Shown one piece after another: positions 1 through 841 of a stretch of 64,000 bases of DNA; the first letter of the stretch is position 1, and each line of letters starts with the position of its first letter. Under the pieces are notes generated by a model that worked only from the letters and a program-made list of their open reading frames with translations, was not told the origin of the DNA and searched no databases. The stretch comes from Promethearchaeota archaeon (GTDB taxonomy: Archaea > Asgardarchaeota > Lokiarchaeia > Sigyniarchaeales > SOKP01): positions 1-64,000 of the forward strand of contig JBHLNZ010000007.1 in the NCBI GenBank assembly GCA_048941015.1, given 5' to 3'. A program made the translations under genes and the position numbers.

Positions 1-314
1 GATTATGTTGCCGATTTTAGAAATAATCTTATTTTATCCTTTAATAAAATTTTTTTAAAATTTATATTTCACTGAAATTTTCAAGAAATTTTGAATAAAA
101 GAAAGTAAGATTCAAAAAATTTTTTAACTTTGTTACATTCTAGTTCTCACTAAGTAGAAAATATAATTCTAAAAGACTTAGGACGCAAATTAAAGCGGTT
201 TCAATATAGTATAGATATTGAAATGAATTTAACATCCATTAACCTTAATTTCGCATTCTTAGCCTTTAGAATATATTTTTAATTAAAAAATATAAGACAA
301 TACGGTGAAAATAT

Positions 315-841
315 GTGAGCGAAAAAGGAAAAGTTGTCGTAAAGGCTCTCGTGACAGGTGGAAGTGCTTCAGGTGGACCACCTATAGGTCCGGCTGTAAA
401 ATAATTCGTCTAGAATATTTAGTTAAAGGACCTACAGGTATCAATATTAAAGATGTGGTCGACGCAGTTAACGAGAAAACTATGATCTTTAGAGGTTTGA
501 CCGTTCCAGTTAGAATTGAGTGTGATCCTGAAACAAAAGGATTCGAGATTTTTGTTGAAACTCCTTCTACTGCATCATTGCTTCTCAAGGAATTAGGTGC
601 TGAAAAGGGAAGTGCTGCTTCTTCAGAAACAAAGGTGGGTAATTTAACATTAGACCAAATAATGAATGTTGTTGAAGCTAAAAAAGATACCTTTTTAGAA
701 AAAACGTACAAAGCTGCAGTTAAAACAGTGTTAGGTACAGCATTATCAATTGGAGCTACTGTTGAAGGCGAGGATCCACGTAAAATTCAAAAAATGATTG
801 ACGATGGAGATTATGATGATAAAATTAAGGGGGAGATATAA
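315..841 (+). CDS. rpl11: 50S ribosomal protein uL11, spliced: join(315..397,427..841), 165 aa
   Basis: GTG at 315 (after SD-like GGTGA at 304-308) reads MSEKGKVVVKALVTGGSASGGPPIGPAV, then TAA at 402-404. The L11 remainder (GPTGINIKDVVDAVNEKT...GNLTLDQI...GTALSIG) continues in another frame from 428. First gene of L11-L1-L10-L12. Confidence 0.93.
398..426 (+). other. 29-nt bulge-helix-bulge (BHB) intron in rpl11 mRNA
   Basis: Exon helix TAGGTCC(385-391)/GGACCTA(428-434); central helix GGCT(392-395)/AGTT(421-424); 3-nt bulges GTA(396-398) and AAA(425-427); intron helix AAATA(399-403)/TATTT(416-420). Cutting after the second nt of each bulge restores the frame. Confidence 0.88.

What the first reader, a model, noticed from the sequence alone, without database searches (positions are those of the whole stretch)
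315..841. tRNA-type (BHB) intron inside the mRNA of ribosomal protein uL11
Seen: the conserved L11 N-terminus (GTG 315; VKALVTGGSASGGPPIGPAV) stops at TAA 402, and the rest of L11 resumes in a different frame after a 29-nt AT-rich insert. The junctions fold into a complete hBHBh' motif. The exon helix is ACCT-a-TAGGTCC(380-391)/GGACCTA-c-AGGT(428-439). The 4-bp central helix is GGCT/AGTT, with opposed 3-nt bulges GTA and AAA, and the intron hairpin is AAATA/TATTT plus TTC/GAA. Cutting after the second nt of each bulge (397|398, 426|427) gives GCT GTA GGA CCT (PPIGPAVGPTG), 498 nt, 165 aa. Known: EndA cuts BHB motifs at exactly these positions and RtcB ligates; the well-established archaeal mRNA case is crenarchaeal cbf5. 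Inference: this Asgard-like archaeon splices an essential mRNA with its tRNA machinery. I know of no report for uL11 but cannot search the literature.
Basis: partly seen in the sequence, partly recalled or inferred. Interest (0 to 1): 0.95.

Follow-up and report, generated by a model that had tools for sequence, protein, structure and literature searches.

The report
tRNA-type mini-intron in Asgard rpl11
The only gene for ribosomal protein uL11 in this Loki-type Asgard archaeon is broken by a 29-base insert shaped exactly like a tRNA intron, so its mRNA almost certainly has to be cut and rejoined by the tRNA-splicing enzymes, which the papers I could search report inside a coding sequence for only one other archaeal gene (cbf5).

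Summary
uL11 is encoded in two frames, 315-397 and 427-841, separated by a 29-nt insert (398-426). The junctions form a strict helix-bulge-helix-bulge-helix (BHB) motif. Cutting after the second base of each bulge gives a 165-aa uL11, and the two halves abut exactly on the Pfam model (positions 1-20 and 21-53). It is the genome's only L11 gene.

DNA contigs from three independent studies hold the insert without gaps, and their differences fall mostly on third codon positions. So this is neither an artefact nor a decaying gene.

In congeneric Promethearchaeota MAGs, rpl11 carries zero to about three such inserts at four nearby sites. Three other species share the window's site. At every site, one frame-restoring register coincides with the BHB. 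Pairs covary, and insert lengths at a single site cover all three residues mod 3, which rules out frameshifting as the general mechanism. EndA, RtcB and archease are all present.

Two more genes of this genome, PFK and dnaG, pass the same test. No RNA data were available, so splicing itself is inferred.

The scan had already noted rpl11 BHB introns in other genomes and similar inserts elsewhere in this genome.

Kind: new member of a known kind. Interest is high.

The parts
315..397 (+). rpl11 exon 1 (GTG start; 27 codons plus the first 2 nt of the Val codon)
   Evidence: Residues 9-28 match Ribosomal_L11_N profile positions 1-20. Relatives have ATG at the homologous position.
380..391 (+). 5' strand of the exon-exon helix (h), made of the PPIGP codons
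   Evidence: Pairs with 428-439, 11 of 12 positions. Four pairs change on both sides among the four site-C carriers. A 7-bp run is found in 4/4 carriers against 4/74 non-carriers.
392..395 (+). 5' strand of the 4-bp central helix (H), GGCT, exonic
   Evidence: Pairs with 421-424. 100% paired in all four site-C carriers, with G-U/G-C and U-A/U-G changes.
396..398 (+). 5' bulge GTA; predicted cleavage between 397 and 398
   Evidence: Geometry. Invariant in the site-C alignment.
398..426 (+). 29-nt intron, with an in-frame TAA at 402-404
   Evidence: Present without gaps in contigs of three studies. Orthologous introns of 28, 28 and 30 nt in L078, L087 and L092.
399..420 (+). Intron hairpin (h'): 399-403 with 416-420 and 405-407 with 413-415; loop 408-412
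   Evidence: The counted pairs are conserved.
421..424 (+). 3' strand of the central helix (H), AGTT, intronic
   Evidence: AGTT, GGCT or AGCC in carriers, always pairing with GGCT.
425..427 (+). 3' bulge AAA; predicted cleavage between 426 and 427
   Evidence: The 3' bulge is AA^N, TA^A or CA^A in nearly all rpl11 introns.
428..439 (+). 3' strand of the exon-exon helix (h), made of the GPTG codons
427..841 (+). rpl11 exon 2 (third base of the Val codon, 137 codons, TAA 839-841)
   Evidence: Ribosomal_L11_N positions 21-53 and Ribosomal_L11 positions 2-69. 24 of 28 listed differences of a 93%-identical strain are at third codon positions of this frame.

Best explanation
The 29 nt at 398-426 are an archaeal bulge-helix-bulge intron inside the coding sequence of the single uL11 gene. 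In the pre-mRNA, the Gly/Pro-rich codons on either side (PPIGP and GPTG, which are GGN/CCN-rich and therefore self-complementary) pair into an exon-exon helix. The last four exon bases before the 5' bulge (GGCT) pair with the intron's AGTT. An AT-rich hairpin closes the intron. The tRNA-splicing endonuclease EndA cuts after the second base of each 3-nt bulge (397|398 and 426|427). RtcB, with archease, joins the exons, giving GCT GT|A GGA (..PAVGP..) and a 165-aa uL11. The 29-nt intron is released, probably as a circle. Unspliced mRNA ends at TAA 402 after 29 residues.

Shown: the anatomy, the register, conservation, covariation, the single copy, DNA reality, and presence of the enzymes.

Inferred: the cleavage and ligation themselves, and which enzyme performs them.
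For: (1) Strict hBHBh' geometry occurs at the only frame-restoring register that has it, and the fold recovers h and h'.

(2) The exons abut exactly on the Pfam model, positions 1-20 and 21-53. The spliced peptide equals the uninterrupted sequence of intronless congeners.

(3) This is the only L11 gene in a 95%-complete genome.

(4) The insert lies without gaps in contigs of three independent studies, with 0, 14 and 43 differences. 24 of the 28 listed differences of the 93% strain are third-codon positions of the exon-2 frame.

(5) The same site carries introns of 28, 28 and 30 nt in L078, L087 and L092. There, 95% of cells are paired against 18-52% when slid, four exon-helix pairs change on both sides at synonymous positions, and H is 100% paired.

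(6) Three further sites in the same 60 nt of rpl11 carry 28-38-nt inserts in congeners. Each has H 4/4 at a frame-restoring register in all but a few instances, which keep 3 of 4 pairs (L014 and five others at site B, L078 and L087 at site A). Compensatory changes include AU:7/GC:7 and GC:10/AU:6.

(7) Lengths at one site cover all residues mod 3. L092 at site C and eight site-B introns are multiples of 3 with an in-frame stop, so only excision explains all cases.

(8) A 7-bp exon helix is found in 4/4 site-C carriers against 4/74 non-carriers, 64 of which encode the same peptide.

(9) EndA catalytic subunit, RtcB and an adjacent archease are present.

(10) PFK and dnaG of this genome pass the same register test.
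Against: There is no RNA evidence, because no RNA run holds the locus. The central helix has two G-U pairs and is not in the minimum-energy fold. Only one EndA subunit gene was found, and its closest solved relative is the narrow-specificity M. jannaschii enzyme, so the enzyme's type and specificity are open. The intron lies only 83 nt into the coding sequence, so splicing must compete with coupled translation. My generic genome-wide screens showed no excess of BHB hits that fuse open frames over slid controls, so geometry alone is common in this AT-rich genome and the case rests on the comparative evidence.
Confidence: 0.85

Rival explanations
1. Translational recoding. The ribosome shifts -1 on A-AAA-TAA (398-404) and reads through the insert in the frame of 305/428, adding about ten residues (..AVK IIRLEYLVK GPTG..). 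Alternatively, it hops from GTA 396 to GTT 422.
For: The exon-2 frame is open through the insert (ORF 305-841). An A-run followed by a stop codon sits at the junction.
Against: It would place about ten unconserved residues in the most conserved loop of the L11 N-domain. The orthologous inserts at this site are 28, 28 and 30 nt, so they need different shifts, and the 30-nt one has an in-frame stop. Eight site-B inserts are multiples of 3 with in-frame stops. What is conserved is RNA pairing, not a peptide. L078 and L087 have no matching landing codon.
Confidence: 0.05
2. The insert is removed from the RNA, but by something other than EndA/RtcB, such as another structure-specific nuclease and ligase.
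For: No enzyme assay exists. Only one EndA subunit was found, and the type of the enzyme is unknown.
Against: The geometry and cut register are exactly those of EndA substrates at all four sites. EndA, RtcB and archease are all present. No Rfam family or ribozyme is found there, and 29 nt is far too short for a self-splicing intron.
Confidence: 0.05
3. A broken gene: either a decaying pseudogene, or uL11 made as two pieces or lacking its N-terminus (translation from GTG 305).
For: The unspliced reading stops after 29 residues. An annotator would call a 178-aa ORF from 305.
Against: It is the only L11 gene. Both exon frames are conserved, with changes at third codon positions. The same interruption persists in diverged strains and species. 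The out-of-frame N-terminus from 305 has no L11 similarity, whereas exon 1 matches the profile.
Confidence: 0.03
4. An assembly or sequencing artefact.
For: The source is a metagenome-assembled genome, and the window starts at a contig end.
Against: Contigs assembled independently from runs of three studies span the insert with no gaps. Two of them are from diverged strains.
Confidence: 0.01

Closest known systems
cbf5 pre-mRNA intron of Crenarchaeota (Watanabe 2002; Yoshinari 2006; Yokobori 2009, PMC2738675)
   Same: A short BHB intron inside a protein-coding sequence, cut by the tRNA-splicing endonuclease. It is present or absent among related species. Annotation pipelines miscall the gene.
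   Different: The gene here is an essential ribosomal protein, in a different phylum (Promethearchaeota/Asgard). The gene has four alternative sites and up to about three introns per gene. Turnover is much faster, with near-identical genes differing in intron state. cbf5 splicing is shown experimentally, whereas this is not.
Non-canonical BHB introns of archaeal tRNA and rRNA genes, including the heavily interrupted tRNA genes of Asgard archaea (bioRxiv 10.64898/2026.10.13.758758; PMC5829648)
   Same: The same motif, size range (about 28-38 nt), AT-rich hairpin and cut register. The same enzymes are expected.
   Different: The host is an mRNA, so the exon parts of the motif are built from codons, and the reading frame adds a constraint. 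That preprint does not mention mRNAs.
BHB intron in the 5' UTR of Haloferax volcanii HVO_1309 (PMC7714728)
   Same: EndA acts on an mRNA.
   Different: That intron is in an untranslated leader and does not restore a reading frame.
HAC1/XBP1 unconventional mRNA splicing in eukaryotes (IRE1 plus tRNA ligase/RTCB)
   Same: It works alike: protein-only excision of a very short intron from an mRNA, a frame change, and ligation by the tRNA ligase (RtcB in animals).
   Different: The nuclease is different (IRE1) and so is the recognition motif (twin stem-loops). That splicing is a regulated stress response, and no regulation is known here.

Membership tests
Archaeal BHB (EndA-type) intron | Two 3-nt bulges on opposite strands, separated by a 4-bp helix | tested here: met
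   GTA 396-398 and AAA 425-427 flank GGCT/AGTT.
Archaeal BHB (EndA-type) intron | Flanking helices h and h' (strict hBHBh') | tested here: met
   h is 7+4 bp and h' is 5+3 bp.
Archaeal BHB (EndA-type) intron | Cutting after the second bulge base yields a functional product | tested here: met
   It restores PPIGPAVGPTG and a 165-aa uL11. The exons abut at Pfam positions 20|21.
Archaeal BHB (EndA-type) intron | Structure conserved with covariation among homologues | tested here: met
   Power at the window's own site is limited (4 sequences from two lineages).
Archaeal BHB (EndA-type) intron | Splicing endonuclease and RNA ligase encoded in the genome | tested here: met
   EndA at C37:4485-5099, RtcB at C58:70506-71813, archease at C58:71833-72252. 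No beta subunit was found.
Archaeal BHB (EndA-type) intron | Spliced exon junction and excised (circular) intron seen in RNA | not testable with these tools
   No RNA run holds the locus.
Archaeal BHB (EndA-type) intron | Cleavage by EndA in vitro at the predicted bonds | not testable with these tools
   This is a bench experiment.
Ribosomal protein uL11 | Ribosomal_L11_N plus Ribosomal_L11 domains, in the rpl11-rpl1-rpl10-rpl12 context | tested here: met
   L1, P0 and P1 ORFs follow at 845-2922.
Programmed -1 ribosomal frameshift | A slippery site and frame relation conserved among homologues | tested here: not met
   Insert lengths of 28, 29 and 30 nt at the same site, and multiples of 3 with in-frame stops.
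Self-splicing group I/II intron or other curated RNA family | A ribozyme core | tested here: not met
   The insert is only 29 nt, and there is no Rfam match in the region.

The most novel reading that the evidence does not exclude
This Loki-type Asgard genus has a population of small, fast-turning-over tRNA-type introns that colonise protein-coding genes. They occur in several genes per genome (uL11, PFK and dnaG tested here, others noted) and up to about three per gene. Exon codons are co-opted and synonymously tuned to build the splicing motif. This would be a genuine intron-exon gene architecture, served by protein enzymes, in the closest prokaryotic relatives of eukaryotes.
Probability: 0.6. 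Interest if true: 0.9.

Novelty: new member of a known kind. Interest (0 to 1): 0.78.

Why it matters
In the papers I could search, archaeal mRNA splicing rests on one coding example (cbf5) and one UTR example. Here an essential, single-copy ribosomal protein gene depends on it, in Asgard archaea. Congeners differ in which of four sites are occupied, so gain and loss are recent and can be studied directly.

It also has a practical side. Gene callers mis-annotate such genes: here they would call a 178-aa ORF with a false N-terminus. Marker-gene sets that use uL11 will therefore be affected in this lineage.

The observation that synonymous codons track intron presence gives a direct handle on how an RNA-processing signal and a coding sequence share the same bases.

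Tried and rejected
- **RNA evidence.** No RNA holder is listed for the locus.
- **Metagenome contig scans.** The exact spliced junction gave 0 hits. A degenerate site-C intron pattern gave 79 hits, none in an rpl11 context, so all are chance matches.
- **Genome-wide screens.** I looked for BHB geometry that fuses broken open frames. The loose version gave 8169 hits against 8290 and 8703 when slid. The stringent version gave 312 against 299-329. With a long intron stem plus a codon-usage score it gave 107 against 83-103. There is no enrichment, so I cannot estimate how many genes are affected. BHB geometry alone is common in this AT-rich genome.
- **Copies of the intron elsewhere in the genome.** Only AT-rich noise turned up. 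The best hit, on C3, is non-coding and restores no frame.
- **EndA beta subunit.** Not found. The weak C133 hit is a class II aminoacyl-tRNA synthetase.
- **Script problems.** Two scripts timed out. My 'intronless' label missed genes with only a site-A intron (L006, L008, L038, L046). The tree's count of changes is therefore approximate, and the extra site-A registers are loose.
- **Rejected on evidence.** Artefact, pseudogene and frameshift, as set out under the rival explanations.

Full report
**What is there.** The window is contig C119 of a 3.59-Mb, 95%-complete genome. From GTG 315 the + strand reads the conserved start of uL11 (..KALVTGGSASGGPPIGPAV) and stops at TAA 402. The rest of uL11 (GPTGINIKDVV..) runs in another frame from 428 to TAA 839-841. 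It is followed by the L1, P0 and P1 genes. Between the two parts lie 29 AT-rich bases.

A script tested every cut pair that restores the L11 peptide. Two registers do so. Only 397|398 with 426|427 has the canonical geometry:
- a 7+4-bp exon-exon helix, 380-391 with 428-439;
- a 4-bp central helix, GGCT with AGTT;
- 3-nt bulges GTA and AAA on opposite strands;
- a 5+3-bp intron hairpin.

The minimum-energy fold recovers the outer and inner helices but not the weak central one. Exon 1 matches positions 1-20 of Pfam Ribosomal_L11_N and exon 2 matches positions 21-53, so the halves abut exactly. Family searches find no second L11 gene.

**Is it real DNA, and is the gene alive?** No RNA run holds the locus. 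Contigs assembled from runs of three independent studies do cover it. One is identical, one has 14 differences and one has 43 (about 93% identity), and all have zero gaps across the insert. Of the 28 listed differences of the 93% strain, 24 fall on third codon positions of the exon-2 frame. None of the listed ones lies in 392-439. An assembly artefact and a decaying gene are therefore both excluded.

**Relatives.** Whole-genome searches and a scan of species-representative genomes gave about 95 loci. All come from MAGs that submitters mostly call Promethearchaeota. Other families of the order, including closed genomes, have an uninterrupted gene. In the window's genus, about half of the named loci (36 of 73) have at least one insert.

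The inserts sit at four sites within about 60 nt:
- A, in GG|SA (32-38 nt);
- B, in PPI|GP (30-36 nt);
- C, in PAV|GP, the window's site (28-30 nt);
- D, in TGI|N (28-29 nt).

Some genes have two inserts, and L081, L099 and L100 apparently have three. At every site, one frame-restoring register has the 4-bp helix between two 3-nt bulges. That helix has all four pairs in all but a few instances, which keep three: L014 and five other site-B introns, and the site-A introns of L078 and L087. Site C is shared by L078, L087 and L092.

**Structure is what is conserved.** At site C, 95% of pair cells are standard pairs, against 18-52% when the partner is slid. The central helix is always paired (AGTT, GGCT or AGCC against GGCT). 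Four exon-helix pairs change on both sides, all at synonymous third positions. At site D the central helix is paired in 18 of 18 sequences and one stem pair is AU in 7 and GC in 7. At site B one stem pair is GC in 10 and AU in 6.

All four site-C carriers have an unbroken 7-bp exon helix next to the BHB. Only 4 of 74 genes without an intron there do, although 64 of those encode the same peptide. The carriers form only two lineages, so this is supportive rather than a formal statistic.

**Against recoding.** In the window, a -1 shift on A-AAA-TAA could in principle read through the insert. But the inserts at this one site are 28, 28, 29 and 30 nt, and the 30-nt one has an in-frame stop. Eight site-B inserts are also multiples of 3 with in-frame stops. 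Only excision explains all of them.

**Machinery.** The genome has one EndA subunit with N-terminal and catalytic domains, plus RtcB with archease next to it. I found no beta subunit. The literature infers an (alpha-beta)2 enzyme with a specificity-broadening loop for Asgard archaea (PMC5829648). The type of enzyme here is undetermined. The window's motif is strict enough for any EndA type.

**Evolution.** On an exon-2 tree, intron states need at least about 26 changes over 79 tips. Near-identical genes differ in state. The window (site C) is sister to L035 (site D only), while the other site-C carriers form a separate clade (some site-A-only genes were mislabelled as intronless). The site-C introns are alike in sequence, so common descent with many losses, or exchange between species, seems likelier than independent origin. 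This is inference.

The clustering of sites fits the codons themselves. Gly-Pro codons (GGN CCN) are self-complementary and supply ready-made exon helices. This too is inference from the sequence.

**Wider pattern.** Earlier notes of this scan named other interrupted genes in this genome. I tested two with the same register test:
- PFK has a 31-nt insert, central helix GCGG/CCGT and a 9-bp intron stem. Excision restores GIMTGGG|DCPGLN.
- dnaG has a 38-nt insert and central helix GGCC/GGCT. Excision restores GAIFGQ|TEGLL.

My generic genome-wide screens showed no excess over slid controls, so the number of affected genes is unknown. The scan has also reported rpl11 BHB introns in other genomes, in agreement with what I derived independently.

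**Literature.** Searches and readings found only two cases. One is cbf5 of Crenarchaeota, a BHB intron inside an archaeal coding sequence. The other is the 5' UTR of Haloferax HVO_1309. A 2026 preprint on Asgard tRNA introns does not mention mRNAs. Subscription journals are not covered by these searches.

**Verdict.** This is a new member of a known kind, a BHB intron in an mRNA. It is well supported by comparative evidence, and splicing itself remains to be shown.

Noticed in passing
window 177-226 (+), upstream of rpl11: A conserved two-hairpin element lies about 90-140 nt before the start codon (..GGACGCAAATTAAAGCGG.. then TTTCAATAT..ATATTGAAA). It is present in congeners with compensatory changes visible by eye (CGC/GCG vs CGT/ACG; TTTCAATAT/ATATTGAAA vs TTTCGATAT/ATATCGAAA vs TTCCAATAT/ATATTGGAA) in the output. 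It could be a leader or regulatory RNA of the rpl11-rpl1 operon. There was no Rfam hit.
   Followed up: partly
window 16590-16682 (-): A tRNA-Sec gene (anticodon TCA; Rfam RF01852, 61 bits), so this archaeon uses selenocysteine.
   Followed up: no
G000 contig C58 (-), around 125495-125548 on the reverse strand; contig C115 (-), around 9663-9720: Phosphofructokinase and DnaG are each interrupted by a BHB-shaped insert (31 and 38 nt). Excision restores conserved motifs.
   Followed up: partly
loose ends at window 361 and 388 in runs X1 and X4: The same sediment samples hold congeners whose rpl11 diverges exactly at site A (an intron beginning GAGAGTTTTTATTTAATATTCATTTAGAAT) or runs on without the B and C introns into a site-D intron. 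Species with different intron sets therefore co-occur.
   Followed up: no
L026 and L031 (intronless rpl11 of other families): The uninterrupted PPIGPAVGPTG coding sequence itself can adopt BHB-like geometry (6-bp outer helix and 4-bp central helix, enclosing 30 nt of exon). If it were ever cut, it would delete 10 codons in frame. This is probably a by-product of the GGN/CCN palindromes.
   Followed up: no
G000 C58:70506-72252: RtcB and archease are adjacent on opposite strands (RtcB on +, archease on -), ends 19 nt apart.
   Followed up: no
rpl11 introns of all sites: The first in-frame stop begins at intron nucleotide 5 in the window, in L092 and in 15 of 16 site-B introns. Many introns carry a TTCG or ATCG loop. 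Whether the early stop is selected, to end translation of unspliced mRNA quickly, is unknown.
   Followed up: no
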